Notes: generated from the sequence alone by a model not told the origin. A DNA stretch of 25,892 bases from Vulcanimicrobiales bacterium (GCA_038231455.1 JBBRLI010000032.1:1-25892), one strand, 5' to 3'; numbered from the stretch's first letter, positions 4,402 through 18,189 are shown. Program-made: numbers and translations.

Positions 4402-4444
4402 AGCATAAGGAGCGCGTTTGAACCTCGTGTGAAGGTCCTAAGAA
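4402..4444 (-). promoter_or_regulatory. Promoter with three 11-bp-period TTCnnA repeats; leaderless
   Basis: Minus strand TTCTTA-N5-TTCACA-N5-TTCAAA-N9-TATGCT-N6-ATG. Confidence 0.7.
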
Positions 4445-4449
4445 CGCCC

Positions 4450-4965
4450 TTAGGTGTGCGAGGGAGTCGGGACCGAGCGCTTCGGCGCAACATCATAGTA
4501 GGGCGTCGTCGGCTCCTTCGCGGGGGAGACCATGAGCGGCGCCGGCACACCAGCACGGCCAAGCGAGCGCACGAAACGGTAGATCGAGCGGAGCTGGTCG
4601 GTGTCGAGCGCGCGCAGGTTGTGCCAGGTCATCGGTGGATGACCGCCACGCGTACGCACCATCGACAGCCACTGATCCTCGCCAATCATTTGAAATTCCA
4701 GGCGCACGTTTGCCGGGTAGACCGTGCCCCACGGACCGCGGAAGCCGATTTCGCTACCGGTCATCCACTGCGCGACCGGAATCGTCGCATCGGACTCGCG
4801 CCAGCCCGGCGTATGGCAATCGTTACAGCCACCAAATGCAACGAGCGTGCGCCCGCGCGAGAGGTCGCCGGGTGCCGGAAGCGGCGAACTCCCGACACGC
4901 TGAACGAGGCCGGATGCGAGGACCGCTGCGATAGCGCCCACGGTGAAAATACGCACGTATTTCAT
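4450..4965 (-). CDS. Exported monoheme cytochrome c
   Basis: Signal-like N-terminus, GGCNDCHTPG, GPWGTVYPANVR, and PPMTW (axial Met candidate). Confidence 0.88.
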   Translation of the reverse strand: MKYVRIFTVGAIAAVLASGLVQRVGSSPLPAPGDLSRGRTLVAFGGCNDCHTPGWRESDATIPVAQWMTGSEIGFRGPWGTVYPANVRLEFQMIGEDQWLSMVRTRGGHPPMTWHNLRALDTDQLRSIYRFVRSLGRAGVPAPLMVSPAKEPTTPYYDVAPKRSVPTPSHT

Positions 4966-4974
4966 CGATCTATC

Positions 4975-5841
4975 CTACCAGAATCGTAAGCGCTTGCGCG
5001 CGGCGCGGTGCCACGCGCGCCGCCACGACTGGCGCGCACGTGACGCTTGCGTGAGATCGACGCCGGCAATTTCTCCCGCGACGAACGCGGCGGCATCCGA
5101 GCTACCCGCGCGAATGCGAAGTTGCTCGCGCTCGACGACCAAGTCGTGCACGTCGCCCAGGATCTCTTGCAGTTGGGTGATGCGTTCGATCACCGGCGAT
5201 GCCCGTTTGCTTGCGAACGGAGCGACCACCTCGAGCGCGTATCGAACCCGGCGAACGCGGATGCGTATGCGGTGCAGGTCGGCGTCGGTTGGATGATCGC
5301 CCAATCGCGCCACGTCGCTTTTGAGGCGCCGCCATGGCCTGCGGATCAGTCCTACGAGTTGCTTTCGGCCGACGTCGAAGGCCTCGGGCGTTGTCGGCGG
5401 ATGCACGCCTGCATCGCGCACGCGTTCGAGGAGTCGCGCATAACGATCTCCATTCATCTCGACCAAGAGCGCGTCGTATGCGATCTTGCGTCGCTCGCGC
5501 ATCGGCTCGACAACCGCAGCGAGTGCAGCGCGGTCCTCGAGCGGTAAACGATTGGCGAATGTCTCGATGTGGCCGAGCACGACATCAGCATCGCGAACGG
5601 AACCCAGATGTTCGCCGAGCCAGCCGAGTTCTTCGAGCAGCACGCGCGTCCACGCCGGCTCGAGCAAGTCGCGAAACGTACGCAGTGCCGAACGCAGCCG
5701 TCGCGTAGCGACGCGCGCTTGATGCACCGACTCGACCGCGCCGGTGTTCCGAACCAACGCTTCATTTTTGCACAGCGCGTCGACGGAAGCTGCAAACGTC
5801 GTCAGAATGACCTCGAGCGCCACGGTTCTGCGCACGCTCAC
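4975..5841 (-). CDS. CHAD domain protein (polyphosphate-binding family)
   Basis: ESVHQARVATRRLRSAL, LG.VRD.DV, LHRIRIRVRRVRY, LQEILGDVHD. Confidence 0.93.
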   Translation of the reverse strand: MSVRRTVALEVILTTFAASVDALCKNEALVRNTGAVESVHQARVATRRLRSALRTFRDLLEPAWTRVLLEELGWLGEHLGSVRDADVVLGHIETFANRLPLEDRAALAAVVEPMRERRKIAYDALLVEMNGDRYARLLERVRDAGVHPPTTPEAFDVGRKQLVGLIRRPWRRLKSDVARLGDHPTDADLHRIRIRVRRVRYALEVVAPFASKRASPVIERITQLQEILGDVHDLVVEREQLRIRAGSSDAAAFVAGEIAGVDLTQASRARQSWRRAWHRAARKRLRFW

Positions 5842-6299
5842 GATTCAAGACTCCGGGCAAACCGGCCCCGCTTTTTCTCGATACGGATACGATAGGCGAT
5901 CCCAGGCGCCTTGAGACGGGCGACGTGGGTCTTTGCTGCTGCACCCGGTTGCGATCCGGCGAGCGCGACAATCGCGTGTCGTGCCGAGAGCAGCTTCAAC
6001 GCATCAAAGGCCGCCTCACCGCCGAGTTGTTCGAAGGTTCCCATCGCGATGACCGACCACCAATCCGCTACATCGACGATTCGATCGACCTCCACGCACA
6101 CGCGTGGCGATGCGCGCATTCCCTCGAGCTTCGAACCGTCGGCGCTATACGCGAAAAACGACGTTCCGTCGTACGCGTACGAAACGGGCACGATCGACGG
6201 CGCACCGCGGCGGTCAACGTACGCGATGCGTGCGATGATTTCTTCCCGCAAGAGCCGTTCGATCGACTCGTCGTCGAGATCGCCGAACATCGGGTTCAT
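5838..6299 (-). CDS. Pyridoxamine 5'-phosphate oxidase-like (split-barrel flavin-binding) protein
   Basis: IVPVSYAYDG, GSKLE.MR.SPRVCVEVD, W.SVIA.G.F. Confidence 0.9.
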   Translation of the reverse strand: MNPMFGDLDDESIERLLREEIIARIAYVDRRGAPSIVPVSYAYDGTSFFAYSADGSKLEGMRASPRVCVEVDRIVDVADWWSVIAMGTFEQLGGEAAFDALKLLSARHAIVALAGSQPGAAAKTHVARLKAPGIAYRIRIEKKRGRFARSLES

Positions 6300-7219
6300 A
6301 CGGATAACGCTACGGTCGCGATGCGTTCCTCACCGCCAAGATCGATCCGGAAGGGAGGATAGTCATCGTACATCAACGCGACGTAGCCGATGACACGAAA
6401 GAGCCAACGGTTGAGACCGACGAGTAAGTCGAAGAGTCCGCGCGGATACCGACCCGTGAAGAGCAGAGCGTAGCCCACAATGCACGCGAGCAGCGGAACA
6501 AGCCCGCCCGTGAGGTGCGCGCCGCTAACACCGCTCGGTGCCGGTCCGCAGAAGATCCCAATGATCAAGTAGTGCGGAAGCGCCAGCAGCCACCATTTGA
6601 CCAGCACGAGCCGGCGCGAGAGCGCATGCGGAAACGCAACGCTTAGATGGGCCGGATAGTCCGCATCGCCAAGCGTAAATGGCGGGTAGCGGTCCGTTGA
6701 GAGTGTTCCGTAGGAGTAGACCGCGACACGCCAACTCCAGCGCATGATCCCAACGTTCGTCGCAAAAATCGCTTGTGGATAGCGCCCGCTGCCGAGAATG
6801 CTGACAAATGCGGCGACGGTGAGGATCCAAAACGCCAGCCACAAGAACGCGAGAACGACGAAGTGTGGGATCGCAAGGATCCACTTGATGAGCCACAGCC
6901 AGCGCCCGAGCGGTTCGTCGAGCTGCGCGCGCAGTCCGAGCGGATACGTGTCGGTGTCCGAGGTGCCGTTTTCGCTTGCCGGACGCGTACCGGCGTAGAG
7001 CACAAGTGCGATACCGCCAATCGTGCCGAGCGTCCCAAGAATGGCAAGCACCACGGCGGCAAATGCCGTCCACCCCGCCTCGGCCATCACAAGAAAGCCA
7101 TTGGGATCGGGCCATGCAACGAGGCGGCTTACGATTGCTGATTGCAGTAACCAAACGCCGCCGATGAGGGTCAACGCCGCACCGATGACGAGCATCACGA
7201 TCTTCACGCGTTCGCTCAC
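6296..7219 (-). CDS. DUF4389-type membrane protein (two repeats)
   Basis: Duplicated R.L.L.KW.LA.PH...GRYP..F....G..RW..RV..Y.....D.YPPF units. Confidence 0.85.
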   Translation of the reverse strand: MSERVKIVMLVIGAALTLIGGVWLLQSAIVSRLVAWPDPNGFLVMAEAGWTAFAAVVLAILGTLGTIGGIALVLYAGTRPASENGTSDTDTYPLGLRAQLDEPLGRWLWLIKWILAIPHFVVLAFLWLAFWILTVAAFVSILGSGRYPQAIFATNVGIMRWSWRVAVYSYGTLSTDRYPPFTLGDADYPAHLSVAFPHALSRRLVLVKWWLLALPHYLIIGIFCGPAPSGVSGAHLTGGLVPLLACIVGYALLFTGRYPRGLFDLLVGLNRWLFRVIGYVALMYDDYPPFRIDLGGEERIATVALSV

Positions 7220-7221
7220 GA

Positions 7222-7452
7222 TCAGCCTTTCGTGTGCTTATTACCGCCGTGCAATTCGGCGTGAATCTTCGCGGCGTCCGACATGAATTGCCCCGCGTGT
7301 TGCATGTGCGCCTGAGCGAGCAGCGCATAGTGCGCTGCTTGCGCGTGATCGCCGCGCGCGTACCGCTCGGCAGCAAGCTCGTGAAAGTCTGCTGCGGAGC
7401 GATGGTAGGCGGCAGCATTCGTGTGGAGTTCGATTGCTTTGTGCGTTGCCAT
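7222..7452 (-). CDS. Small His/Ala-rich helical protein, putative metal binding
   Basis: 76 aa with regularly spaced His (H..AA..H..AA..H..AA). One-nt TAATG overlap with the upstream gene. Confidence 0.75.
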   Translation of the reverse strand: MATHKAIELHTNAAAYHRSAADFHELAAERYARGDHAQAAHYALLAQAHMQHAGQFMSDAAKIHAELHGGNKHTKG

Positions 7453-8648
7453 TATTTCACTCTGCTGATCGGGAACGTCGCCCAGATCATGCCTTTCCAG
7501 GTCGGGCCGCCGGATGCACCGGCGAGCGCCGAATTCCCGCCGAGATTCGCCTCGATGTAGCCGTGCAGATAGATGTTGTGCGGGATATTGAAGGCAAGGT
7601 TGATCGAATTGCCGTTCGTGACGGCCCCGCCTGCGCCGGCATCGTTGATATCGTGACGGAATCCGATGAGCGCGCCACCGCGGAAGATCGGTTCATACAC
7701 TTCGAAACTCGCGCCGTGACTCGTCGTTGGACCAAGCGGCGTGACGCCATCGGAACCGACGCCCGGATTGTTATCGAACTCCGATTGGTAGATTGCGAGC
7801 ACGCCCGGACGGCCGTGTTGACCGGGATCGACCTGCACGTATGCGGCTTGCGAATGGTAGCGATCGGTACCGGTACTCACCGGCAACGTGCCGACGCTTC
7901 CAAAAACGCCGAATTCGTAAGGTTTGGTCGGCAATGCGTACGAGGCTTTCCATTGGAAGGTCTTATCGCCCGGTCCAAAATCCGTTGCGCCGTTGAGATC
8001 TTCTCCGCTCAAATAATAGCCCGCTTCGAGGTCGACGGCTTTCTTGACGTATGCGAATCGCGCTCCCCAACGATTGCCATACGTAGAGCCCCAGGCGTGT
8101 TCGCCAACGGTTGTCGACGACGCCGATGGACCGTCGAGATCGGAATTTTGGCTGTACGGCGATGGCGCCGGGTTAAGGATTTTCCCAACAAAAAGATGCC
8201 CGTCGCGATGGAAGAGGTTGTTGTAGGTAAGCCAGAGTGTATCCACCCCGCCGGAGGCGTCACCCGAAACGATGAACTGCTGCGCGTGAATTGTGAGATC
8301 CGGCGCGACGTAGCCGACGAGGTGGAGCGCGAAATTACCAAATGAGTAGCGCGGCACGCCCGTCTCTTTGCCAGCCGTAGAATTGTAATTCATCGCCTCA
8401 CCAAACCACACAGGATTGGCTCGCGCGAGCACGGTCCGGTCGAGCGAGGCATACCCGGTGCGCTGAATGTAACGTCCATACGCATTGAGCGAGGGGACGA
8501 CCGAGTGGCAAGCGTTACAGCTCAGACCATAAGCCTGCGCGAACGGCGGCATTGCCTCGGTGGCCTTCGGTACCACGAGCAAACCGGAAAGAAGCACACC
8601 GAGGGTCGCAATGACGCCCAATGTCGGATAGAGCCGCACTTTCATCAA
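7452..8648 (-). CDS. Cyc2-like fused monoheme cytochrome c / beta-barrel outer-membrane protein
   Basis: Signal peptide ending TEA, then MPPFAQAYGLSCNACHSVVPSLNAYGRYIQRTGY (Cyc2-type P.FA..G..C..CH...P.L...GR....G). It is followed by about 330 aa of aromatic-rich amphipathic beta-strand-like sequence. Confidence 0.75.
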   Translation of the reverse strand: MMKVRLYPTLGVIATLGVLLSGLLVVPKATEAMPPFAQAYGLSCNACHSVVPSLNAYGRYIQRTGYASLDRTVLARANPVWFGEAMNYNSTAGKETGVPRYSFGNFALHLVGYVAPDLTIHAQQFIVSGDASGGVDTLWLTYNNLFHRDGHLFVGKILNPAPSPYSQNSDLDGPSASSTTVGEHAWGSTYGNRWGARFAYVKKAVDLEAGYYLSGEDLNGATDFGPGDKTFQWKASYALPTKPYEFGVFGSVGTLPVSTGTDRYHSQAAYVQVDPGQHGRPGVLAIYQSEFDNNPGVGSDGVTPLGPTTSHGASFEVYEPIFRGGALIGFRHDINDAGAGGAVTNGNSINLAFNIPHNIYLHGYIEANLGGNSALAGASGGPTWKGMIWATFPISRVK

Positions 8649-9001
8649 GGAAGCACGTTAATCGTAAGCGTCATCGTGTCATGACCGGCACCGCAAACGA
8701 TCGTGCAATGAAGCACGTACGTGCCCGCCTTCTTCGGCGTAAACTTCACCTCGGAGAGTTTATCGGGTACGATCATCGTCTTGGCGATTCCAAGTTCGGT
8801 CGACTCGATGCCGTGCACGCCTTCCGATGAGGTAAGCAGCAGCGTCATCGACGAGCCGACATGGGCTTCGACTTTTGCCGGGATGAATTTCCAGTTCGAA
8901 GCGACGATATCGGCCGTTGGGTGCGCCGATGTTGCGCCTGCAGTAAACATGATGAAGGCACCAAGCGCGGCACCGAGAGCGATTCGACGAGATACAAACA
9001 T
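8645..9001 (-). CDS. Exported stand-alone cupredoxin with CuA-type motif
   Basis: ATG 9001 with GAGGGAG RBS; signal peptide; GVHG...CTIVCGAGHDTM (H...CxxxCxxxHxxM). Confidence 0.88.
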   Translation of the reverse strand: MFVSRRIALGAALGAFIMFTAGATSAHPTADIVASNWKFIPAKVEAHVGSSMTLLLTSSEGVHGIESTELGIAKTMIVPDKLSEVKFTPKKAGTYVLHCTIVCGAGHDTMTLTINVLP

Positions 9002-9042
9002 GATAAGAGCGCTCCCTCGAGCAGAGTCGTAGCGTTTTGCCA

Positions 9043-9135
9043 ATCATAGGTGCGGCCTACGAAGGCGATGCGAAGACGACACGCTCGGTACGGAAGCGCA
9101 CCTTCTTACGTTCTTCTTACGGCGACGGCTATGAT
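9043..9135. promoter_or_regulatory. Back-to-back promoters, each with a tandem TTCnnA repeat
   Basis: Minus: TTCGCA-N5-TTCGTA-N9-TATGAT (9074-9043). Plus: TTCTTA-N5-TTCTTA-N10-TATGAT (9103-9135). Confidence 0.72.
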
Positions 9136-9159
9136 GAGCGCGCTAAGAAAAGGAACTTC

Positions 9160-9555
9160 ATGTCATTCATTCCATTTGCACTCATGCTCGCAATCGCCGT
9201 GCCGATCGCATCATCCGCTCCCGCGGCCATGCCCGCGCAGCAAGCGAGCACTGCCGCTACGGCCAGCACCCAAGCCACTGGACCGATCACGATTACCGCA
9301 TCGAATTGGGCCTTCGATCCCGCCAAAGTGATCGTCCACGCCGGACAACTTACAACATTCCGCGTCACGAGCAAAGAGGGCGTGCATGGCTTGGGGAGCG
9401 ACGCGCTCGGTCTACCTGCGACGACGATCATGCCGGGCAAGATGACCGCTCTTACCTTTACACCAAAAAAAGCCGGCACGTATAAACTGTCGTGCACGAT
9501 CGTCTGCGGTGCGGGTCACGCCGAGATGGCGATGACGGTGATCGTTCTCCCGTAG
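9160..9555 (+). CDS. Exported stand-alone cupredoxin with CuA-type motif (paralogue of 8645-9001)
   Basis: ATG 9160 with AAGGA RBS; signal peptide; ASNW.F.PAKV..H.G, EGVHG, FTPKKAGTY.L.CTIVCGAGH..M. Confidence 0.9.
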   Translation: MSFIPFALMLAIAVPIASSAPAAMPAQQASTAATASTQATGPITITASNWAFDPAKVIVHAGQLTTFRVTSKEGVHGLGSDALGLPATTIMPGKMTALTFTPKKAGTYKLSCTIVCGAGHAEMAMTVIVLP

Positions 9556-9559
9556 GGCT

Positions 9560-9973
9560 CTACGCGACCTCGCTAAGCAGCGCATTCGAGAACGTTTCGA
9601 GTGCGTTGCGAGCGATGGCGTTCATAAACCGCGCCACCAGCGGGTGCGGGGCACCGCCGGCCACCGATGCATAGCTGCCTTCTAAGCGCAAGCGCGATGC
9701 GTTCGGCGGAGCTTCACAAACCCGAAGGCGACCGCAGAATTCGGGAAACGCATTGCCGGCGCAGACGCTCCAGGACACGGCGATACCGCCGTCATCGTGC
9801 CGCCGACAATCCACGACTACGTCGCGCACCATTCGCAGTTCCGGTAAGGCGGGCAACCGCGCAATCGGACGGACGGCAACGCGCGGCCGACCTTCTGCAT
9901 AAGCATCGAGGGCGGCCTCTGTCGTCGACTGCGGTTGTGCGAGGACGATTTCCCGCACGAGGCGCCGGTTCAC
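9560..9973 (-). CDS. Uncharacterised protein, divergent member of W..G.FP.F.G.L family
   Basis: VSWSVCAGNAFPEFCGRL...LRLEGSY...AIARNALE. Overlaps the upstream gene stop (GTGA). Confidence 0.7.
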   Translation of the reverse strand: MNRRLVREIVLAQPQSTTEAALDAYAEGRPRVAVRPIARLPALPELRMVRDVVVDCRRHDDGGIAVSWSVCAGNAFPEFCGRLRVCEAPPNASRLRLEGSYASVAGGAPHPLVARFMNAIARNALETFSNALLSEVA

Positions 9974-10473
9974 GTCGTTTGGGTTTCGCGCCGATTCCGT
10001 TTTGCCGTCTCGACGCTACGCGAGCTTTGTTCGACGTACGAACCGACGCGCTCCAGCAGTTCTTTGCCCGTGCTCTCGGCGATTGCGTGACCGACCGTGT
10101 GATCGAATGCTGCGCCGACGGGACCCAGCGGCGGTTCGTAGGTGCCGCTCAAGTCGAGCACACACGTCGTGTAATCCTCGGCGTTAGCGATCTCAAGAAT
10201 GCCGGCAAATTTGGGAAATGGGCCGCCGCCGGTACTGTGCCACGCGACGCGATACCGTTTGGTCATATCGCCCGCCTCGTGAAAGGGATGGACTTGAACG
10301 ACGCAATCACGCGCGAGTTCGATCTCCGGCAGTCCGGGAATTTGGATCGGGGCGCGGAGCGCCATCGTCGGCGTGCCATCGGCATCGCGGCGTTGATCGA
10401 AGAATTCCATCACGAAACCCGGTGCCTGACCGACCGGGCAAGCGAGTTGTCGAGAGACGTGCAGCTTGCTCAT
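9970..10473 (-). CDS. Uncharacterised protein, W..G.FP.F.G.L / G.Y.PP.G..G..FD family (possible START/SRPBCC-like fold)
   Basis: VAWHSTGGGPFPKFAGIL...LDLSGTYEPPLGPVGAAFDHTVGHAIA. Confidence 0.8.
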   Translation of the reverse strand: MSKLHVSRQLACPVGQAPGFVMEFFDQRRDADGTPTMALRAPIQIPGLPEIELARDCVVQVHPFHEAGDMTKRYRVAWHSTGGGPFPKFAGILEIANAEDYTTCVLDLSGTYEPPLGPVGAAFDHTVGHAIAESTGKELLERVGSYVEQSSRSVETAKRNRRETQTT

Positions 10474-10479
10474 GACGCA

Positions 10480-10522
10480 ACGCTACGCTACGCGCGTGCG
10501 GAAGTCTTGAACGAGTTGCGAA
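10480..10522 (-). promoter_or_regulatory. Promoter with tandem TTCnnn repeat one helical turn further upstream; leaderless
   Basis: Minus strand TTCGCA-N5-TTCAAG-N20-TAGCGT-N6-ATG. Confidence 0.55.
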
Positions 10523-10562
10523 GCTCGAATTCTTCTTTTCGGAACGCCTTACCGGAGCGAGA

Positions 10563-11234
10563 TCACGCCGTCCGCGGAAGCGTTTTGATGCTCGGGATGT
10601 TCACCGTGAAGCGGGCTCCGCTGCCGGGAACGTTCTCCACGGCGACGCTTCCGCCGAGTTCGTCGACGAAGCGCTGGACGACCGAGAGACCCAGACCGCT
10701 GCCTTTCGTCGCCTCGCTTGCCGAGCCACGGAAGCCGGATTCGAAAATCTGCGCCCGCTCGTGGTCGCGTACGCCCGGACCGGAATCCGTGACCATGAGT
10801 GTGAGCCCATCGGCGCGCCGACAATCGATGTCGACACGTCCACCATTTGGCGTATAGCGGATGGCATTCGAGACGACATTGTTGACGATCTCAGCTACAT
10901 GAATCGGATCGCAGGTAAAGGCACTGCACTCGGCATGATCCGCGCGACAGCGCTGGACGTTGAACGCGATGCCCTTTTCTTTCGCGGCCGCTTCGAACGC
11001 GATGACTTCGTTTGCAATAAGTTGGCAGACGTCGGTCATCCGCATCGTCGAGGCGCCGCTGGGCGCCGTCTGTCCGAGCGGCACGGCATCGAGCAACACG
11101 TCGACCTCGCCGAGCGCTTGCAGGACGGCGCCGAGGCGCGCGGGCGATGCCTCAAGCACGCCGTCGCGAAAGGCTTCGACGTTAGCGATTGCGATTGCGA
11201 GGTGATTGCGGATTTCGTGAATGACACTTTTCAT
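10563..11234 (-). CDS. Histidine kinase lacking sensor/TM domains (HisKA + HATPase only)
   Basis: H-box IHEIRN at residue 6, N-box NVVSNAIRYT, G1 DSGPG, F-box IFESGFRG, G2 GSGLGL. Confidence 0.9.
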   Translation of the reverse strand: MKSVIHEIRNHLAIAIANVEAFRDGVLEASPARLGAVLQALGEVDVLLDAVPLGQTAPSGASTMRMTDVCQLIANEVIAFEAAAKEKGIAFNVQRCRADHAECSAFTCDPIHVAEIVNNVVSNAIRYTPNGGRVDIDCRRADGLTLMVTDSGPGVRDHERAQIFESGFRGSASEATKGSGLGLSVVQRFVDELGGSVAVENVPGSGARFTVNIPSIKTLPRTA

Positions 11235-11926
11235 CGCGGTTCCACCATCTTGTAGCCGACCCCAAAGACCGTAAGAATGTAACGCGGATTTGCGGCGTCA
11301 CGTTCGATTCGGGCGCGGAGGTTGGCGATATGCCGATCGAGCGTCCGGTCGAAAACATCGCCGTCGGTCGTGAGCCGTTCGAGCAGTTGATCGCGCGTGA
11401 GCGTTTGGCCCAGATGTTGCACGAGCACGTCCAGTAGCCGGTATTGCGTGGGTGTGAGCGCAACAGAGACGCCCCCCACCTTTACCTCATGCCCAGCAGA
11501 ATCGATTGCAATCTCGCCAATGCGGCGAACCCGCGCTTCTTCGGCTTTCGGGCGCTCGCTTCGGCGCAGGATCGTCTTGACGCGCGCGACGACCTCGCGC
11601 GGACTATACGGCTTGCCCACGTAGTCGTCGGCTCCAAGTTCGAGGCCGACGACGCGGTCGATTTCATCCGTGCGCGCCGAGAGAATGACGACCGGAACGT
11701 CGCGCTGCGTGCGAATGCGGCGCAACACCTCAAGACCCGAAAAACCGGGCAACGTCAGGTCGAGCACCACGATATCCGGATGTTTTTGCTCGAACGCGGA
11801 GACGGCGCTTGGCCCATCGATCGCGCTCACCACCGTAAATCCCTCATCACGCAAATAGTGTGAAAGGACCTCGACGAGTGCCGGCTCATCATCCACGACC
11901 AGTACGGTGCGCTCGGAATGCTCCAC
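11231..11926 (-). CDS. OmpR/PhoB-family response regulator
   Basis: VVDDEP, VLDLTLPG, GADDYVGKPY, wHTH LTPTQYRLL...DRTLDRHIANLR...TVFGVGY. Confidence 0.96.
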   Translation of the reverse strand: MEHSERTVLVVDDEPALVEVLSHYLRDEGFTVVSAIDGPSAVSAFEQKHPDIVVLDLTLPGFSGLEVLRRIRTQRDVPVVILSARTDEIDRVVGLELGADDYVGKPYSPREVVARVKTILRRSERPKAEEARVRRIGEIAIDSAGHEVKVGGVSVALTPTQYRLLDVLVQHLGQTLTRDQLLERLTTDGDVFDRTLDRHIANLRARIERDAANPRYILTVFGVGYKMVEPR

Positions 11927-11979
11927 GGCAAAGACGTCTTCGGCGGTATCGGAGGCGCACCCCCGAAACGAGCCCTGCG

Positions 11980-13053
11980 ATGGAAATTCTCACCGTGAAC
12001 GCCGGCTCGACCTCGCTCAAATTGGAATGGTACCGACTCGGTGACGTGCTACCGGCAATCGACAATCCACCGGCACCGACGCGGGCACAGACCGTAGCGC
12101 GAGCCGAAGCTGCGGCGACGCTGGCGGCCCTTGAACCGCACGTTGATGCGATCGCGCACCGGTTCGTCCGCGTCCCCGACGATGCGCCCGGCGTCTTTTC
12201 GCTCGACAATGCGGCGCTCGCGCGGCTTACGGCACTCGAAGCGGAAGCGCCGCTTCACAACAGCGCAGCGTTGGAAGCGGTGCAGGCGCTCGCCCGCTGC
12301 GGTGCTCCGCAGTTTGCGGTGAGCGATAGCGCGTTCCACCGCACGCTCTCCGATGCGGCCGCGACGTACGCACTTCCCAAAACCATTACCGCACAAGGCC
12401 TACGTCGACGCGGCTATCACGGGCTCAGCCATGAATATGCGGCGCATCGCGCTGCGCGATTGTGCGGTCGCGGCGTGCGGCATGCACGCATCGTGACATT
12501 GCATTTGGGGGGCGGCTCATCGCTCTGCGCGATCGCGAACGGTTCCAGTATCGATACGACGATGGGATATACGCCGCTCGAAGGCGTCCCGATGGCGACG
12601 CGCAGCGGGAGCGTCGATCCGGGAATTCTCATCCACCTCTTGCGCGGCGGAATGACGCTGGCCGGACTCGAGCGGATGCTCGAAACCGAATCGGGGCTGC
12701 TTGGAATCTCCGGCACGAGTGGCGATGTGCGCGCGCTTTCGGCTGCGAGCGGCGATCCCGATGCACGACGCGCGCTCGACGTGTTCGTGTGGCGCGTCCG
12801 CGCAGCGCTCGGTGCGCTCATTGCAACGCTCGGCGGAGTCGAGATCATCGCGTTTACCGGCGGGATCGGCGAACATGCCGCCGACCTGCGGGCAGCCATT
12901 TTTCGCGGAGCGGTTCCCTGGGGTGCGACGCTCGATGCGGCAGCAAACGCGAACGCAAGCGGCGACACCGTCATCTCGCAAGCCGGCGCCGACGTCGGTG
13001 CGGCCGTGATCGAAGCGCGCGAAGGCTGGCAACTGGCGCGCGCGGTGCGCTAG
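11980..13053 (+). CDS. ackA: Acetate/propionate kinase
   Basis: Start [58 protein letters not shown]. Confidence 0.92.
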
Positions 13054-15425
13054 CGCTTCGCGCGCCAGCGCCAGTCGCGAATCGCGGGCATATCGTCGCC
13101 GATTTCTTCGATGTAGCGGCGATGATCCACGAGCGTATCGCGAATGAGTTGCTTGAGGTGCGCGCCGGTGTCGGATAACCCCGGTACGCGGTCGACCACG
13201 TCGCCCGCAAGATGAAAGCGATCGATGCGATTGCGAACGGCCATGTCGAACGGCGTCGTCGTCGTACCCTCTTCGATGTATCCGCGTACGTGCATATTGT
13301 CGTGCCCGTGGCGCCGATAGGTGAGACGGTGGATTAACCACGGATAGCCGTGATAGGCAAAGATCACCGGGCGATCGGGCGTGAAGAGCGCATCGAATTC
13401 GGCATCCCTCAGACCGTGCGGATGCTCGTCGTGCGATTGTAGCGTCATCAGATCGACGACGTTGATGACGCGGATACGCAGTGCGGGCAGATGCGTACGT
13501 AACAAATCGACCGCCGCGAGGGTTTCGAGCGTCGGCACATCGCCGGCGCACGCGAGCACCACATCGGGGACCACGCCGTCGTCGTTTGAGGCCCATTCCC
13601 AAATGCCGATTCCGGCCGTGCAATGGCGCACGGCCGCGTCCATGTCGAGCCACTGTGGTGATGGCTGTTTTCCCGCAACGATCACGTTGATAAAGTTTTG
13701 ACTCCGCAAACAGTGGTCGGCAACCGAGAGCAGCGTGTTGCCGTCGGGCGGTAAGTAGACGCGGACCGTATCCGCTTTTTTGTTGACGACGTGATCGATG
13801 AACCCGGGATCCTGGTGGCTAAAGCCGTTGTGGTCTTGGCGCCAGACGTGCGAGCTGAGCAGGATGTTGAGCGAGGCGATCGGTCTACGCCACGGCACCT
13901 CGCGCGAGATCTTGATCCACTTTGCATGCTGATTGACCATCGAGTCGACGATGTGGATGAACGCTTCGTAGCACGAGAAAAGTCCGTGCCGGCCGGTGAG
14001 CAGATACCCTTCGAGCCATCCCTCGCACTGATGCTCGCTCAAAACTTCCATCACGCGCCCGGTCGGACTGAGATGATCGTCCGTTGCAATCGTCGGGTCC
14101 AGCCACATGCGCCCGGTGATATCGAAGAGGTCATCGAGCCGGTTCGATGCCGTCTCGTCGGGCCCGAACACGCGAAAGCGTTCTTTATTGTGCGACATAA
14201 CATCGCGCAACCAGTGACCGAGCACGCGCGTCGACTCCGCATCCGTCGCACCGGGTGCATCGACTGCGACGGCATAGCTGCGAAAATCCGGCAATTCAAG
14301 CGCAGCGATCTGCCCGCCGTTCGCACGCACGCTCGCGCTCATGCGTTTATTGCCCGCAGGGGAGCCTGCCGTGACATCGTCGCGCACGCGCCCGTGGCGG
14401 TCGAAAAGCTCCTCGGGCCGGTAGCTTTGCAGCCACGTTTCTAACGCGCGAAGATGCGCGGGATTTTTCAGATTTGCCAGAGGCACTTGATGCGCGCGGG
14501 CGGTGCCTTCGATGGCGTGACCGTCGACGAACTGCGGCCCCGTCCACCCTTTTGGCGAGGCCAGCACGATCATCGGCCAACGCGGCCGCGTCGGCACGGC
14601 CCCGGGCGCGCGTGCCTGCCGTTGGATCGCACGGATGCGGCGATAACACGCATCCAGATGCATCGCCATCGCGCGGTGCATGGCACCCGGTTCGTGGCCT
14701 TCGACATAGTGCGGTTCGTAGCCGTAGCCGCGCAGCAGCAAATCCAATTCCGCGCGCGGCATGCGTGCGAGTACCGTGGGGCTCGCAATTTTATAACCGT
14801 TGAGGTGGAGGATGGGGAGCACCGCTCCGTCGCGCGCGGGATTGATAAACTTATTGCCATGCCAACCCGTTGCAAGCGGCCCGGTCTCCGCTTCGCCATC
14901 GCCCACAACGCACGCTACGATGAGCTCCGGATCGTCGAAGACGGCGCCGAATGCGTGTGAGAGCGAATAGCCCAGTTCTCCGCCTTCATGAATCGAACCG
15001 GGTGTCTCGGGCGTGGCGTGACTGCCGATTCCACCGGGAAAGGAAAACTGTTTCATCAGTCGTTGCAGACCCGCTTCATCGCGGGTGATGTGCGGGAAGA
15101 GTTCGGTGTACGTTCCCTCGAGATAGGCGTTTGCGACCAGCGCCGGGCCACCATGTCCCGGGCCGGCGATGAAGAGCACGTCGGCGTCGGAAGAGCCGAT
15201 CAGCCGATTCAGATGCGCGATGATGAAATTGAGCCCCGGCGTCGTCCCCCAGTGGCCGACGAGACGGGGTTTCACGTGTTCGAGCTTGAGCGGCTCGCGC
15301 AATAGCGGGTTTGCGAGCAAATAGATTTGGCCGGCGGAAAGATAGTTCGCCGCGCGCCAATAGCGATCGATGAGCGCGTACTCATCTTCCCGCAGCAGGT
15401 CGCCTTGCATCGTCAAGCTCGTCAT
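13050..15425 (-). CDS. xfp: Phosphoketolase (XFP/XPK family)
   Basis: [24 protein letters not shown] motif [31 protein letters not shown]. Confidence 0.97.
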
Positions 15426-15432
15426 AATCGTA

Positions 15433-15513
15433 AGTCTAACGAACCGGTTCGCCCGACTCGTGAACGGATCACCGGGTACCGTTCACGACGCCTTCCAATC
15501 TGCGCTCGATGAT
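15433..15513. promoter_or_regulatory. Divergent leaderless promoters sharing an inverted repeat built from TTCACG sites
   Basis: TCGTGAACGG (15458-67)/CCGTTCACGA (15479-88). Plus: TTCACG-N5-TTCCAA-N9-GATGAT-N6-ATG. Minus: TTCACG-N20-TAGACT-N7-ATG. Confidence 0.65.
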
Positions 15514-15519
15514 TGCAAC

Positions 15520-15963
15520 ATGTCCACGATCGCCCTCTCGGTCCCCGTCCACGCGCCGGCGAACTTCACCCTCTCGTACTTGCATTCGTACCTGCGCGAG
15601 GGAGCGGCCGCAGGGCCACGCTTGCATTTGCACGTCCCGCTGCGTCCCTTCGGTAATGACTTCTCGCTCGAAAAAGACGTGTCCGTGCGTGTCGCGTATG
15701 CCCACCACGAACTCACGGTGCGCTGGACCCCCGAAGGCGACGGAGCGTTTCCGAATTTCGAGGGCACGCTCACGGCGATCGAAAACGGCAGCGAACACTG
15801 CATCCTCACGCTTGCGGGGGCGTATCGTCCGCCGGGCGGATGGCCCGGGAAGATTTTCGATACGCTAGCGGGCGGTAGCATCGCGCGCTCCACGATCGAG
15901 ACGTTGTTGAACGAACTCGGCGCGGCAACCGAGGCGGACTTTCACATCCGATCTTCGGACTGA
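15520..15963 (+). CDS. Uncharacterised protein, third paralogue of W..G.FP.F.G.L family
   Basis: VRWTPEGDGAFPNFEGTL...LTLAGAYRPPGGWPGKIFDTLAGGSIA. Start ATG 15520. Confidence 0.8.
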   Translation: MSTIALSVPVHAPANFTLSYLHSYLREGAAAGPRLHLHVPLRPFGNDFSLEKDVSVRVAYAHHELTVRWTPEGDGAFPNFEGTLTAIENGSEHCILTLAGAYRPPGGWPGKIFDTLAGGSIARSTIETLLNELGAATEADFHIRSSD

Positions 15964-17054
15964 AGCGCGGAGAGTTCGCTTGCGGCCTTCCGCTCGTCGC
16001 GCTTGGGACGGCAACGCTCAGCGCCTGTACGTCGCGTGCGCTAACGTATGCGGATGACGTACGTTCGACCTGGCTCGAGCTCGATCGTTCGCTAGCATCG
16101 CAGCCGGCGGGGATGCGCGAACTCGTTCGGTACGCGACGCTTGCTCCTTCGAGTCACAACACGCAGTGCTGGCGGTTTACGATCGATCCGCACCGCGTTA
16201 CGATTCGGCCCGATTTCGCGCGGCGCTGCCCGAGCGTCGATCCCGACGATCACCACCTCTTCGTGAGCCTCGGCTGCGCAGCGGAGAACCTCGTTCAAGC
16301 AGCAGCTGCCGTGGGATTGCAGGCCGATGTCGCCGTCGATTCGGCCAGCGGCATCGTCTCCGTGTCGCTCGCTCCCGCGCGGACGATCTCCGCATCGCCA
16401 CTCTTCGCCGCGATCACGCACCGCCAGTGTACGCGGTCCGTCTACGATGGGCGCCGCGTTTCAACCGCGGACCTTGCGTTACTCGCAAGCGCGGCGCAAG
16501 GAAGCGGTCACTCCGTTCACTTTCAGACGACGCCCGCACAAGTCGAACGCGTACTCGAATTCGTCGTCGCCGGGAACACCGCACAGATGAACGATGCGGG
16601 ATTCATGGATGAGTTACGCCACTGGATCCGCTTTAACGATGCTGACGCCGCGCGCACGGGCGACGGACTTTTTTCGCGCGCATCGGGCAACCCCGCAATT
16701 CCCGGCTGGCTCGGCCCGACGATGATGCGCCTCGTGTTTACCGCGAAAGGCGAAAACGACAAGTACGCGCGCGAACTGCGGAGTTCCGCGGGACTTGCAA
16801 TTTTCGTTTCCGAGTCGAGCGACCGGGAACACTGGGTCGACGCCGGTCGGGCATATCAGCGCTTCGCGCTTCAGGCGAGGGTCCTCGGCATCAAGACGGC
16901 GATGGTGAATCAAGCGGTCGAGGTTCGCGCGGTGCGCGGAGCATTCACACAAGCGATGGGGCTGGGCGGACGTCCGGATCTCGTCGTCCGCTTTGGATAC
17001 GCTAGCGACATGCCGCGTTCGCTTCGGCGTCCAGTCGCCGCGGTGATCGATTGA
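15960..17054 (+). CDS. Acg-family nitroreductase-like FMN-binding protein, probable exported/lipoprotein N-terminus (first ATG is 16113; frame extends to CTG 15960)
   Basis: ATLAPSSHNTQCWRF, VDPDDHHLFVSLGCAAENL, RQCTRS.YDG, GRAYQRFALQA, RFGY...S.RRPV. Confidence 0.85.
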   Translation: MKRGEFACGLPLVALGTATLSACTSRALTYADDVRSTWLELDRSLASQPAGMRELVRYATLAPSSHNTQCWRFTIDPHRVTIRPDFARRCPSVDPDDHHLFVSLGCAAENLVQAAAAVGLQADVAVDSASGIVSVSLAPARTISASPLFAAITHRQCTRSVYDGRRVSTADLALLASAAQGSGHSVHFQTTPAQVERVLEFVVAGNTAQMNDAGFMDELRHWIRFNDADAARTGDGLFSRASGNPAIPGWLGPTMMRLVFTAKGENDKYARELRSSAGLAIFVSESSDREHWVDAGRAYQRFALQARVLGIKTAMVNQAVEVRAVRGAFTQAMGLGGRPDLVVRFGYASDMPRSLRRPVAAVID

Positions 17055-17062
17055 AGCAAGCA

Positions 17063-17094
17063 TTCACAAGCGATTCACATCGCCCGGGTACGGT
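17063..17094 (+). promoter_or_regulatory. Promoter with perfect tandem TTCACA repeat
   Basis: TTCACA-N5-TTCACA-N9-TACGGT upstream of the second USP gene. Confidence 0.7.
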
Positions 17095-17128
17095 GAAGGT
17101 CTCTCGCTCTTCGGAAGGATGCGCTTCG

Positions 17129-18001
17129 ATGTCACAGGCGAATTTTCACCGCGTTGCCGTCGCCATCGACGGCTCGCCGGCGGCACAAGCGGCGCTCGGG
17201 CTTGCGCTCACGATCGTCGCACCGGGTGGAGAGGTCGCGTTTATCCACGCTCTCAATCGAACCGCGGTGATCGCCGAGTGCGTCACCCCGTACGGCGGCG
17301 ATGCGACCGTTGCGCTCGACGCACTCGAAGATGACGAGGGCGATCTTCTCGCCGCTGCCGTCGGACGCGCAACCGCGCAAGGCCTGCGTTCCACAACCCA
17401 CTCGCTGGACGGCCCGGCGGGCGATACAATCGCGAAATTCATTCAGCGCGACAATTTCGACGCCGTCGTTCTTGGAACAGACGGTCATACGGGCTTCGAG
17501 CGACTGATGCTCGGGAGTACCGCGGAGACCGTGTTGCGCGGCGCGCACGTCCCAACGTTCATCACGCGCGAACGGATCGTCTCGCGCGCCGAAGTCGGCA
17601 TCTGCCGCATCCTCGTTGCAGTCGATGAGTCGGGACCGGCAAGCGATGCCGTACGCTACGCGATCGGCCTTGCCGCGGAACACGAAGCAAACATCGTCTT
17701 TGCCCACGTCGCTCCGAAGAACGCCGCGCCGGCCGCCGAGGCGCCGTACATCCGCGCGGCAACCGACGAAGCGACGCGCAGGGGCGTTGAGAGCGAGACG
17801 ATCGAGTTGCACGGGTCGCCCGAGGAGGCAATTCCAATCGCGGCCGAGGCAACCAAGAGCGACCTCATCGCCATCGGCACGCATGCCCGTACGGGTCTCG
17901 ACCGCATTCGCCAGGGCAGCGTCGCCGAAGCCGTCATCCGCGCGTCGACCATCCCCGTCCTCGTCATTCCGCTGGCAGTACGAACACCCAGCCGGATGTG
18001 A
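17129..18001 (+). CDS. Universal stress protein, tandem USP domains
   Basis: VAVAIDGS, LGTDGHTGFERLMLGSTAE, IGTHARTGLDRIRQGSVAE..PVLVI. Start ATG 17129. Confidence 0.94.
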   Translation: MSQANFHRVAVAIDGSPAAQAALGLALTIVAPGGEVAFIHALNRTAVIAECVTPYGGDATVALDALEDDEGDLLAAAVGRATAQGLRSTTHSLDGPAGDTIAKFIQRDNFDAVVLGTDGHTGFERLMLGSTAETVLRGAHVPTFITRERIVSRAEVGICRILVAVDESGPASDAVRYAIGLAAEHEANIVFAHVAPKNAAPAAEAPYIRAATDEATRRGVESETIELHGSPEEAIPIAAEATKSDLIAIGTHARTGLDRIRQGSVAEAVIRASTIPVLVIPLAVRTPSRM

Positions 18002-18062
18002 AGACGGCGCGAAGATTGGTTCGCTCATCGTTCATTCGATCGCGAACCGCTCTCGTTACCAT
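17997..18062 (+). promoter_or_regulatory. Promoter of ba3 oxidase operon with TTC tandem sites; leaderless
   Basis: TTCGCT-N5-TTCATT-N20-TACCAT-N6-ATG. There is also an opposite-strand pair TTCGCG-N5-TTCACA at 18013-17997. Confidence 0.55.
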
Positions 18063-18068: not shown

Positions 18069-18188
18069 ATGAATGAAACCGATCGTGATGCGCCCCTACC
18101 CGCGACGCTGAAATTCGTCCTGAGCATGGGCGCCGTCTTTTTCATCGCTTGGTTGCTGATGTTCGCGCTCGTTCAGAAGGAGTGGTAG
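18069..18188 (+). CDS. Single-TM 39-aa protein, probable ba3 oxidase subunit IIa (CbaD-like)
   Basis: MNETDRDAPLPATLKFVLSMGAVFFIAWLLMFALVQKEW lies immediately before subunit II, as in B-family oxidase operons. Confidence 0.75.
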   Translation: MNETDRDAPLPATLKFVLSMGAVFFIAWLLMFALVQKEW

Positions 18189-18189
18189 C

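What the first reader, a model, noticed from the sequence alone, without database searches (positions are those of the whole stretch)
4402..18062. Undescribed regulon: TTCnnn-N5-TTCnnn boxes phased to the -10 at eight promoters
Seen: 11-bp-period TTC(A/G/T/C)nn hexamers lie 9-10 bp upstream of a -10-like hexamer at USP1 (4417-4444, three copies), both cupredoxins (9058-9074; 9103-9119), the 15520 gene (15482-15498) and USP2 (17063-17079). They lie exactly one turn further (20 bp) at the 10473 gene (10506-10522), xfp (15459-15464, single site) and the ba3 operon (18020-18036). Known: OmpR/PhoB regulators bind 11-bp tandem repeats, and Pho boxes replace the -35 about 10 bp from the -10. Inference: the OmpR-type regulator at 11231-11926 activates this island. 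The gene content (USPs, Acg, PPOX-like) parallels the mycobacterial DosR dormancy regulon, but DosR is NarL-family and binds a palindrome.
Basis: partly seen in the sequence, partly recalled or inferred. Interest (0 to 1): 0.82.

Follow-up and report, generated by a model that had tools for sequence, protein, structure and literature searches.

The report
Stress regulon with phased activator boxes
Eight promoters in this gene island of an uncultured soil bacterium carry the same short repeated boxes exactly one or two DNA turns upstream of the promoter's -10 element, which marks one two-component regulator switching on stress, respiration and fermentation genes, an arrangement that recurs across the phylum.

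Summary
TTCNNN hexamers with an 11-bp period sit 9-10 bp or 20 bp upstream of TANNNT -10 boxes at eight promoters. Most of these promoters give leaderless mRNAs.

The window is a whole contig of an Eremiobacterota (WPS-2) genome. In 31 loci from other genera around orthologues of the response regulator 11231-11926, the same architecture recurs. The box-to-(-10) distance is 9 (19 cases), 20 (25) or 21 (7), and 0-3 at every other distance. Period 11 gives 44 cases against 0-8 for other periods. The boxes lie upstream of the same gene kinds.

Genome-wide, the pattern tracks this regulator's orthologue, at 1.16 against 0.26 hits per genome. It does not track a second OmpR-type regulator. 14 of 68 listed hits lie within 10 kb of the orthologue.

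Best reading: a PhoB-style activator regulon, distinct from the Pho system. Its kinase has no sensor domain but four invariant cysteines. The mechanism is of a known kind; the regulon is a new member, not found in print. Binding, activation and the signal are inferred.

The parts
4417..4444 (-). Three in-phase boxes (TTCTTA, TTCACA, TTCAAA) of the USP1 promoter, in registers C, B and A
4402..4407 (-). -10 box TATGCT of USP1, 6 nt before the ATG at 4395 (leaderless)
2795..4395 (-). USP1 (tandem Usp, 3448-4395) and the overlapping ATP-grasp gene (2795-3451)
9058..9074 (-). Two boxes (TTCGCA, TTCGTA) of the cupredoxin-1 operon promoter; -10 TATGAT at 9043-9048
4450..9001 (-). Seven-gene operon with touching or overlapping ORFs. 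In order: cupredoxin 8645-9001, unknown 7452-8648, small ORF 7222-7452, DUF4389 6296-7219, PNPOx-like 5838-6299, CHAD 4975-5841, unknown 4450-4965
   Evidence: operon inferred from spacing
9103..9119 (+). Two boxes (TTCTTA, TTCTTA) of the cupredoxin-2 promoter; -10 TATGAT at 9130-9135; gene 9160-9555
10506..10522 (-). Two boxes (TTCGCA, TTCAAG), 20 bp from -10 TAGCGT at 10480-10485, leaderless ATG at 10473
9560..10473 (-). Two paralogous SRPBCC/START-like genes (9970-10473 and 9560-9973)
11231..11926 (-). OmpR/PhoB-family response regulator, the proposed box-binding activator
10563..11234 (-). Histidine kinase of 223 aa. It begins at the H-box (His6), has no sensor or membrane segment, and carries four invariant Cys (70, 96, 103, 138)
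15459..15464 (-). Single box TTCACG of the xfp promoter, 20 bp from -10 TAGACT at 15433-15438; ATG at 15425
13050..15425 (-). Phosphoketolase (xfp)
15482..15498 (+). Two boxes (TTCACG, TTCCAA) of the 15520 promoter; imperfect -10 GATGAT at 15508-15513; leaderless ATG at 15520
15520..17054 (+). Third SRPBCC-like paralogue (15520-15963) and the Acg-family nitroreductase (16113-17054). The nitroreductase has no box of its own and is possibly co-transcribed
   Evidence: co-transcription inferred
17063..17079 (+). Two boxes (TTCACA, TTCACA) of the USP2 promoter; -10 TACGGT at 17089-17094; gene 17129-18001
18020..18036 (+). Two boxes (TTCGCT, TTCATT), 20 bp from -10 TACCAT at 18057-18062; leaderless ATG at 18069
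18069..21890 (+). ba3-type oxidase operon: 39-aa ORF 18069-18188, subunit II 18190-18663, subunit I 18665-20347, a SCO1/SenC domain gene, and DUF6920 20919-21890
11980..13053 (+). Acetate kinase. It is in the island but no box was found upstream (53-bp gap to the regulator gene)

Best explanation
The boxes are binding half-sites of the OmpR/PhoB-family response regulator encoded at 11231-11926.

Inferred mechanism: the phosphorylated regulator binds head-to-tail as a dimer to two adjacent 11-bp units, with cross-phylum consensus c-g-TTCAC-a/g. The sites occupy fixed registers relative to the -10. Taking the first base of leaderless mRNAs as +1, they span about -38 to -22 (boxes 9 and 20 bp from the -10) or -49 to -33 (boxes 20 and 31 bp away). 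In either place the site stands where a -35 would be. None of these promoters shows a -35. The regulator would therefore recruit RNA polymerase as PhoB does at pho boxes.

In this genome it drives at least eight promoters and about 24 genes in the island:
- two tandem USPs;
- two CuA-type cupredoxins;
- a ba3 oxidase operon with a SCO1 domain gene;
- phosphoketolase;
- three SRPBCC-like paralogues;
- PNPOx-like, CHAD and Acg nitroreductase genes.

A few promoters elsewhere carry the same boxes, for example a multicopper oxidase gene.

Input comes from the co-transcribed 223-aa kinase. It has no sensor domain, so it most likely senses through its own four invariant cysteines (redox, O2 or a metal) or through a partner protein. 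The gene set suggests a low-oxygen or energy-limitation persistence programme.

Shown: the motif, its phasing, its conservation, and its genomic and phyletic linkage to this regulator. Inferred: binding, activation, and the signal.
For: 1. The sites are real and non-random.

2. Cross-genus phasing in 31 loci (498 kb, same-genus locus left out):
- box-to-(-10) distance: 19 cases at 9, 25 at 20, 7 at 21, and 0-3 at each of the other 31 distances tested;
- period 11 gives 44 cases, other periods 0-8;
- TTC gives 44 cases, the next-best trinucleotide 15;
- a single box before a leaderless ATG peaks at distances 9 (12), 20 (32) and 31 (18).

3. The 49 downstream ORFs in 32 loci fall in the same families:
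- tandem Usp 5, small cupredoxin 7, ba3 subunit II 4, xfp 4, SRPBCC-like 165-169 aa 5;
- Hsp20 2, SpoIIE/PP2C 2, PNPOx 1, BON 1, the regulator itself 1;
- ATP-grasp 1, TonB-dependent receptor 1, a weak DUF6920 match 1, and 14 without a family.

4. Twelve high-GC loci around unrelated OmpR regulators had 0 matches.

5. A matrix trained only on other genera (102 boxes) finds 9 sites scoring 14 or more in this genome and 0 in the reversed-sequence control. Three of the nine lie in the window.

6. Linkage to this regulator:
- Boxes lie upstream of its own gene in L015 and L019-L025.
- Of 131 genomes of families f1-f3, the 81 with the orthologue have 94 leaderless distance-20 matches (control 9). 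The 50 without it have 13 (control 6). Fisher odds ratio 7.1, P 8e-7.
- Crossing with the second OmpR regulator, RR2: RR1+/RR2- gives 1.19 matches per genome, RR1-/RR2+ gives 0.28.
- 14 of 68 listed matches outside this genome lie within 10 kb of the orthologue.

7. It is not the Pho regulator. pstS sits beside another OmpR-type pair, and CTTAA-type repeats spaced 10-11 bp lie upstream of it.

8. The regulator has REC and Trans_reg_C domains.

9. The kinase is sensor-less in 15 of 24 loci examined, and its four Cys are invariant in 11 of 11 aligned sequences.
Against: - There are no binding or expression data. No RNA run was listed, and that blank is not evidence either way.
- In this genome and its same-genus relative the regulator gene has no recognisable box of its own.
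- Only TTC is fixed, and it is fixed by how the sites were collected. A 17-bp matrix without the -10 is unspecific: most of its top hits lie inside genes.
- Regulon membership varies. Of 20 xfp upstream regions, only 5 show clear boxes, plus one with a single box. Three regulator-adjacent xfp copies (G008, G019, G028) show none or are ambiguous.
- Genomes without the orthologue still show a small excess (13 matches against 6 in the control).
- The genomes are related, so the Fisher P value is overstated.
- 81 matches were not listed, so the proximity count covers only part of them.
- A second OmpR-type pair (C1:446649-448216) sits behind similar boxes next to copper proteins, so some cross-talk cannot be excluded.
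- Sites spanning -38 to -22 could in principle repress.
Confidence: 0.75

Rival explanations
1. The boxes are real activator sites, but they are bound by another OmpR-family regulator of the genome. The candidate is the copper/RppA-like pair at C1:446649-448216, whose own operon is preceded by similar boxes. The neighbouring regulator would then do something else.
For: Boxes TTCAGA-N5-TTCACA-N9-TAGCGT-N6-ATG and a divergent set precede a plastocyanin-like, cytochrome c, regulator and kinase operon and a SCO1 gene. The window island is rich in copper proteins: two cupredoxins, the ba3 oxidase and a SCO1 domain gene. A multicopper oxidase gene elsewhere carries a near-consensus site.
Against: The architecture tracks the window regulator's orthologue and not RR2. 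The 26 genomes with RR1 but without RR2 have 31 matches (control 0). The 43 genomes with RR2 but without RR1 have 12 (control 6). Sites cluster within 10 kb of RR1 orthologues. The two proteins are only 34% identical.
Confidence: 0.08
2. The TTCNNN hexamer 20 bp from the -10 is a -35-like element read by an alternative sigma factor, not a transcription-factor site.
For: The box at distance 20 is the one most often present (32 single-box cases). It lies roughly where a -35 would be.
Against: A 20-21 bp spacer is longer than sigma-70-type spacers (established knowledge, not tested here). The boxes come as tandem copies exactly 11 bp apart in three registers (9, 20 and 31), and USP1 has all three. 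That is the pattern of a head-to-tail dimer, not of one sigma contact. The pattern's phyletic distribution follows a response regulator.
Confidence: 0.04
3. This is the organism's phosphate (Pho) regulon. The half-site resembles the Streptomyces PhoP core GTTCACC, and the island holds CHAD, phosphoketolase and acetate kinase genes.
For: The S. coelicolor PHO box core is GTTCACC in 11-nt direct-repeat units (passages of PMC4415409). The regulator's best solved relative is RegX3, at 1.2e-55.
Against: The only pstS (C3:164148-164963) lies directly behind a different OmpR-type regulator-kinase pair that is 42% identical. CTTAA-type repeats, not TTCAC, lie upstream of it. No pst or pho gene was found behind a TTC box. 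The PhoB models score below their cut-offs.
Confidence: 0.02
4. The boxes are a chance or compositional by-product of TTC-rich intergenic DNA.
For: TTC-N8-TTC alone is common: 1953 in the genome and 21 in the window. Three distance-20 matches in the window lie inside genes or an IS element.
Against: Shuffle, genome-rate, wrong-distance, wrong-period and wrong-word controls all fail to reproduce the signal. The same genes carry the boxes in other genera.
Confidence: 0.01

Closest known systems
PhoB and the pho box (E. coli), the OmpR/PhoB class of activators
   Same: Two 11-nt direct-repeat units bound head-to-tail stand in place of the -35, about 10 bp from the -10, and the regulator contacts sigma (passages of PMC4415409). 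The proteins share the REC plus winged-helix architecture.
   Different: The half-site differs: TTCAC-type here, CTGTCAT in E. coli. The regulon differs, with no pst or pho genes. A second promoter class is shifted by exactly one turn. The kinase has no sensor domain. The curated PhoB models are not reached (209 bits against a 296 cut-off).
Streptomyces coelicolor PhoP PHO boxes; mycobacterial RegX3
   Same: The PhoP core GTTCACC in 11-nt repeat units is nearly the consensus found here. RegX3 is the best solved relative and also binds direct repeats.
   Different: Those are phosphate regulators. Here the Pho system is a separate pair with CTTAA-type boxes. The RegX3 site given in the preprint (GGTGCcaactGGTGA, 5-bp spacer) differs.
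DosR/DevR dormancy regulon of Mycobacterium tuberculosis (and OsdR of Streptomyces)
   Same: The gene content overlaps: an Acg-family nitroreductase (306 bits against a 199 cut-off), tandem USPs, and Hsp20/alpha-crystallin in relatives. The DosR regulon members are as listed in PMC3721108 passages. OsdR and DevR are known to me here from abstracts in a search listing only (PMC5069765, PMC3177182).
   Different: The regulator here is OmpR-type, not NarL/LuxR-type (that DosR is NarL-type is recalled). The sites are direct repeats phased to the -10, not a palindromic Dev box (recalled). The kinase has no GAF-haem sensor. The set here also includes a ba3 oxidase, cupredoxins and phosphoketolase.
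lxa low-oxygen locus of Burkholderia cenocepacia
   Same: It is an island of USPs, alpha-crystallin, nitroreductase, acetate kinase and cytochromes, induced at low oxygen from many promoters that share one motif (passages of PMC3721108).
   Different: Its motif is TGA-N6-TCA, an inverted repeat of Anr/FNR type. It therefore has a different regulator class.
SrrAB of Staphylococcus aureus (OmpR-type, redox and hypoxia)
   Same: It is an OmpR-family pair linked to hypoxia. Its kinase senses redox through a cysteine disulfide in the catalytic (CA) domain (passages of PMC8534201). The four invariant Cys here lie at the start of and within the same domain.
   Different: SrrB has extracellular Cache and PAS domains; the kinase here has none. 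Orthology was not tested. Redox sensing here is an inference.

Membership tests
OmpR/PhoB-family response regulator | N-terminal receiver domain plus C-terminal winged-helix Trans_reg_C domain | tested here: met
   PF00072 at 2.9e-29 (residues 8-117) and PF00486 at 3.7e-21 (residues 154-227). The best solved relatives are RegX3, MtrA, BaeR and PhoP.
OmpR/PhoB-family response regulator | Binds tandem direct repeats with a period of about 10-11 bp | not testable with these tools
   Candidate sites with an 11-bp period exist and co-vary with the gene. Binding itself needs EMSA or DAP-seq.
Any named regulator equivalog (MtrA, CreB, BaeR, PhoB, OmpR, ArcA, CopR and others) | Score at or above the curated NCBIfam cut-off | tested here: not met
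   The best is MtrA at 218 bits against 300. PhoB scores 209 against 296, ArcA 131 against 334, and the heavy-metal subfamily 143 against 279.
Pho regulon | The regulator is encoded with or controls pst/pho genes, and its boxes lie upstream of pstS | tested here: not met
   pstS lies beside another regulator-kinase pair, with CTTAA-type repeats upstream. No pst or pho gene lies behind a TTC box.
DosR/DevR regulon | NarL/LuxR-type regulator binding a palindromic box | tested here: not met
   The regulator has Trans_reg_C, not GerE. The sites are direct repeats. The DosR features themselves are recalled, not taken from a call.
DosR/DevR regulon | Gene content: Acg nitroreductases, tandem USPs, alpha-crystallin | tested here: met
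   Acg family NF047509 at 305.8 bits against 199. Two tandem Usp proteins. Hsp20 lies behind boxes in L017 and L043. Overlap in content only.
Pho-box-type (class II) activator promoter | The site overlaps the -35 position about 10 bp from the -10, and there is no -35 hexamer | tested here: met
   Distance 9-10 at five window promoters and 19 sites in other genera. I read no TTGACA-like hexamer 17 bp upstream of the -10 in the sequences. Start sites are inferred from leaderless ATGs, not mapped.
B-family (ba3) haem-copper oxidase | Subunit I is closest to Thermus ba3 rather than to A-type oxidases | tested here: met
   1ehk and related chains at 4e-119, against A-type chains at about 1e-12.
SRPBCC / START / Bet v 1 superfamily (three unknown paralogues) | Helix-grip fold | tested here: inconclusive
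   The model has pLDDT 92.6. Foldseek hits to START, Bet v 1 and CoxG chains have E 2e-4 to 1e-3 and TM about 0.5. 15 of 82 family members weakly match Polyketide_cyc2.

The most novel reading that the evidence does not exclude
The partner kinase is a minimal cytoplasmic sensor. It is a bare DHp-CA core that starts at the phospho-accepting histidine, and it reads cellular redox state, O2 or Cu(I) directly through four invariant cysteines (a disulfide switch or a bound metal or Fe-S centre). The pair would then be the master switch of a persistence programme (USPs, Hsp20, Acg, ba3 oxidase, phosphoketolase) across Eremiobacterota and perhaps Dormibacterota. It would be a third, independent regulator solution, after NarL-type DosR and FNR-type Anr, for the same low-oxygen survival gene set.
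Probability: 0.3. Interest if true: 0.65.

Novelty: new member of a known kind. Interest (0 to 1): 0.5.

Why it matters
Eremiobacterota (WPS-2) is a widespread soil and peat phylum that is almost entirely uncultured, and I found no regulon described for it in the library searched.

This finding supplies several usable things:
- a concrete cis-element with a strict promoter grammar, and its likely regulator;
- a conserved target set, which allows prediction of co-regulated genes in metagenome-assembled genomes;
- functional context for unnamed families: the three SRPBCC-like paralogues, DUF4389, and the 398-aa protein;
- a direct target for DAP-seq.

It also shows that a DosR-like gene set (USPs, Acg, Hsp20) can sit under an OmpR-type regulator. 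This adds to the cases (DosR, Anr at lxa) where the same survival genes were wired to different regulators.

The sensor-less kinase with four invariant cysteines is a tractable candidate for a new way of sensing within the kinase core.

Tried and rejected
- A 17-bp two-box matrix without the -10 was too unspecific. Most top genome hits lay inside genes.
- A broad pattern with a variable 9-21 gap in five complete relatives gave counts like the reversed control and was uninformative.
- A stricter TTCNC pattern lost most of this genome's own sites.
- Same-genus alignment of the cupredoxin intergenic region was 93% identical throughout, which is too close for footprinting.
- The PhoU locus on C16 gave no useful context. 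pstS did.
- RNA evidence: no RNA holder was listed for window 8600-18590.
- One paper search timed out and was repeated with fewer terms.
- I looked for boxes upstream of the regulator gene, ackA and the Acg gene in the window and recognised none.
- The site at C23:5668, inside a flagellar export operon (fliQ/fliR/flhB/flhA by Pfam), is probably a false positive of the matrix.
- I did not test whether a DosR-type regulator exists in this genome.
- I could not measure whether the four cysteines cluster in three dimensions, because the tools return no coordinates.


Full report
**What the window is.** The 25,892-bp window is the whole of contig C32 of a 3.71-Mb, 106-contig genome. Titles of public records holding close relatives of its response regulator name Eremiobacterota, also written Vulcanimicrobiota, WPS-2, Baltobacteraceae or Elarobacter. 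Pfam and NCBIfam give the following gene map:
- tandem-Usp protein USP1, 3448-4395 (-), with an overlapping ATP-grasp gene;
- a run of seven touching minus-strand genes from cupredoxin 8645-9001 down to 4450 (unknowns, DUF4389, PNPOx-like, CHAD);
- a second cupredoxin, 9160-9555 (+);
- two unknown genes, 9970-10473 and 9560-9973 (-);
- an OmpR-type response regulator, 11231-11926 (-), overlapping a 223-aa histidine kinase, 10563-11234 (-);
- acetate kinase, whose true start is ATG 11980;
- phosphoketolase, 13050-15425 (-);
- an unknown gene, 15520-15963 (+);
- an Acg-family nitroreductase, 16113-17054 (306 bits against a 199 cut-off);
- USP2, 17129-18001;
- a ba3-type oxidase operon from 18069. 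Its subunit I matches Thermus ba3 at 4e-119, against about 1e-12 for A-type chains.

Five promoters have two or three TTCNNN hexamers at an 11-bp period, ending 9-10 bp before a -10-like hexamer: USP1, both cupredoxins, the 15520 gene and USP2. Three have the proximal hexamer 20 bp away: the 10473 gene, the ba3 operon, and xfp with a single box. At five of the eight, an ATG follows the -10 by 6-7 nt (USP1, 10473, xfp, 15520, ba3), so these mRNAs are probably leaderless. This is a general habit of the organism: a TANNNT ending 6 nt before the called start occurs at 68 of 3156 crude gene calls, against about 18 at other offsets.

**Chance controls.**
- Dinucleotide shuffles of the window expect 0.02 matches at distance 9 and 0.06 at distance 20. 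The window has 3 and 6.
- The genome holds 34 matches at distance 9-10 and 16 at distance 20. Of these, 5 and 6 fall in this 0.7% of the genome.
- A blind enumeration of all 3- and 4-mers as direct repeats at periods 5-15 in the seven island intergenic regions puts TTC at period 11 first: 9 observed, 0.49 expected, Poisson 2.7e-9.
- Three distance-20 matches in the window (450-492, 3210-3252, 10981-11023) lie in an IS element or inside genes. I do not count them as promoters.

**Conservation in other genera.** I fetched 20-kb loci around relatives of the regulator. The 32 loci with 52-97% identity (519 kb) hold 52 matches to the two-box-plus-(-10) pattern. The rate in this genome would predict about 7. 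Twelve high-GC loci around unrelated OmpR regulators hold none. After leaving out the same-genus locus, 31 loci (498 kb) remain, and the phasing in them is sharp:
- Box-to-(-10) distance: 19 cases at 9, 25 at 20, 7 at 21, and 0-3 at every other distance from 0 to 33.
- Period: 44 cases at 11, and 0-8 at periods 7-16.
- Word: 44 cases for TTC, and 15 for the next-best trinucleotide.
- A single box before a leaderless ATG peaks at distances 9, 20 and 31 (12, 32 and 18 cases).

There are therefore three registers, each one helical turn from the next. Promoters use the inner two, the outer two, or all three (USP1). The consensus unit from 102 boxes is c-g-TTCAC-a/g.

The 49 ORFs downstream of these sites fall into the same families as in the window:
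- tandem Usp 5, small cupredoxin 7, ba3 subunit II 4, phosphoketolase 4, and the 165-169-aa unknown 5;
- PNPOx-like 1, Hsp20 2, SpoIIE/PP2C 2, BON 1, and the regulator itself 1;
- ATP-grasp 1, TonB-dependent receptor 1, a weak DUF6920 match 1, and 14 without a family.

**Sites elsewhere in this genome.** A matrix trained only on the other genera finds 9 sites scoring 14 or more, and none in the reversed-sequence control. Three are in the window. By Pfam, the others precede:
- a multicopper-oxidase gene (C8);
- an 83-aa ORF followed by a TPR gene (C1:442740);
- a small ORF followed by type III polyketide synthase and ICMT genes (C5);
- an IS element inserted in front of a BON-domain gene (C12);
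- a plastocyanin-like, cytochrome c, second OmpR regulator and kinase operon, with a divergent SCO1 gene (C1:445 kb);
- a doubtful site inside a flagellar export operon (C23).

**Which regulator binds?** The genome has several OmpR-type regulators, so adjacency alone is weak evidence. Four tests bear on the question.
1. Boxes precede the regulator's own gene in L015 and L019-L025, which is typical autoregulation. They do not in the window or its same-genus relative.
2. I searched 201 genomes of the phylum for the leaderless distance-20 pattern without reference to any gene. I searched the same genomes for the regulator's orthologue. In the 131 genomes of the three related families, the 81 with the orthologue hold 94 matches (reversed-pattern control 9). 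The 50 without it hold 13 (control 6). Fisher odds ratio 7.1, P 8e-7. The P value is overstated because the genomes are related.
3. The same table crossed with the second regulator, RR2, shows that the signal follows RR1 only. Matches per genome are 1.19 with RR1 and without RR2 (26 genomes, control 0), 0.28 with RR2 and without RR1 (43 genomes), 1.15 with both (55 genomes) and 0.14 with neither (7 genomes).
4. Of the 68 listed matches outside this genome, 14 lie within 10 kb of the orthologue on the same contig, where about one is expected. 81 matches were not listed.

The Pho alternative fails. The only pstS lies directly behind a different regulator-kinase pair, and CTTAA-type repeats spaced 10-11 bp lie upstream of it.

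**How it most likely works.** The geometry is that of PhoB at pho boxes: two 11-nt units bound head-to-tail stand in place of the -35, and sigma is contacted (passages of PMC4415409). With +1 at the leaderless ATG, the inner class spans about -38 to -22 and the outer class -49 to -33. I saw no -35 hexamer at these promoters in the sequences, which fits dependence on an activator. Binding and activation are inferred.

The half-site is close to the Streptomyces PhoP core GTTCACC. The best solved relative is RegX3. No curated equivalog cut-off is reached. The protein is therefore a distinct member of the family that has kept a common recognition core.

**The input.** The kinase starts at its H-box (His6) and has no sensor or membrane segment. 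This form follows the regulator in 15 of 24 loci examined, at 230-258 aa. Four cysteines (70, 96, 103, 138), at the start of and within the catalytic domain, are invariant in 11 of 11 aligned sequences. SrrB of S. aureus senses redox through a disulfide in the same domain (passages of PMC8534201). I therefore favour redox or oxygen sensing by the kinase core at about 40%. Copper or a partner protein are the alternatives. This is inference.

**The unknown genes.** Three unknown genes behind boxes (9970-10473, 9560-9973, 15520-15963) are paralogues of an unnamed family with 1764 representatives at E up to 0.001. Their fold is probably SRPBCC/START-like: the model has pLDDT 92.6, Foldseek TM-scores are about 0.5, and 15 of 82 members weakly match Polyketide_cyc2.

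**Comparison with known systems, and novelty.** The gene set overlaps the DosR regulon and the Burkholderia lxa locus. The lxa motif is an FNR-type inverted repeat. DosR is NarL-type (recalled). Here an OmpR-type regulator does the job. The mechanism class is textbook. The regulon, its grammar and its kinase were not found in print in two full-text searches. Supplements were not consulted. I rate it a new member of a known kind, well supported by comparative evidence, with moderate interest.

**Unpublished genomes.** G009, G020, G022 and G036 enter only the tallies, one negative row, and one zero row of the 131-genome table.

Noticed in passing
window 10563-11234 (-); L020, L026, L028, L032-L037, L040, L044: The histidine kinase is a bare DHp-CA core that starts at the phospho-accepting His. 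It has four invariant Cys (70, 96, 103, 138) in 11 of 11 sequences. ORFs of 256-277 aa with four Cys also follow regulator relatives in L039 (titled Dormiibacterota), L046 and L053; these were not examined further.
   Followed up: partly
window 9970-10473, 9560-9973 (-), 15520-15963 (+): Three paralogues of an unnamed family of about 150-170 aa (1764 representatives at E up to 0.001). All are behind TTC boxes. The fold is probably SRPBCC/START-like, with a long C-terminal helix.
   Followed up: partly
G000 C1:444345-448216 (L091:8346-12214): A second OmpR-type regulator-kinase pair (34% identical, RppA/heavy-metal-like, below cut-offs). It lies in an operon with a plastocyanin-like protein and a cytochrome c, divergent from a 204-aa unknown and a SCO1 gene. 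Both directions carry similar TTCA-type boxes at an 11-bp period, and one has a leaderless ATG.
   Followed up: partly
G000 C3:164030-164147 (upstream of pstS; L098): Four CTTAA-type repeats spaced 10-11 bp lie upstream of pstS, directly after another OmpR-type regulator-kinase pair. This is probably the organism's real Pho box.
   Followed up: partly
G000 C12:14856-16865 (L099): A near-consensus box promoter is followed by an IS3-like transposase (HTH_Tnp_1, rve). The transposase is read through into a BON-domain ORF. This looks like an IS insertion between a regulon promoter and its BON gene (BON is box-driven in L044).
   Followed up: no
window 1-2681: The left end of the contig holds an IS605 OrfB-like fragment, a phage-lysozyme-like ORF and a tyrosine integrase. 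GC in the first kb is 0.52 against about 0.62 elsewhere. This is a mobile-element remnant next to the island.
   Followed up: no
window 13050-13053: ackA (+) and xfp (-) converge and overlap by 4 bp at their stops, so they are not in one operon. ackA starts at 11980, only 53 bp from the divergent regulator start, and no box is recognisable there.
   Followed up: partly
window 3210-3252 (-): A two-box, distance-20 match lies inside the ATP-grasp gene and is conserved in the same-genus locus L013 (18201+). It may be an internal promoter for a 133-aa C-terminal product, or chance within conserved coding DNA.
   Followed up: no
G025:C22:3880-8453; G026:C30:39313-44069; G028:C243:18120-22924; G027:C82:14585-17248: In genus g25 (family f2) the regulator orthologue is present as two or three copies about 2 kb apart on one contig. 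This is a local expansion of the system.
   Followed up: no
whole genome G000: There is a leaderless-mRNA signature. A TANNNT ends 6 nt before the called start codon at 68 of 3156 crude gene calls, against about 18 at neighbouring offsets.
   Followed up: partly
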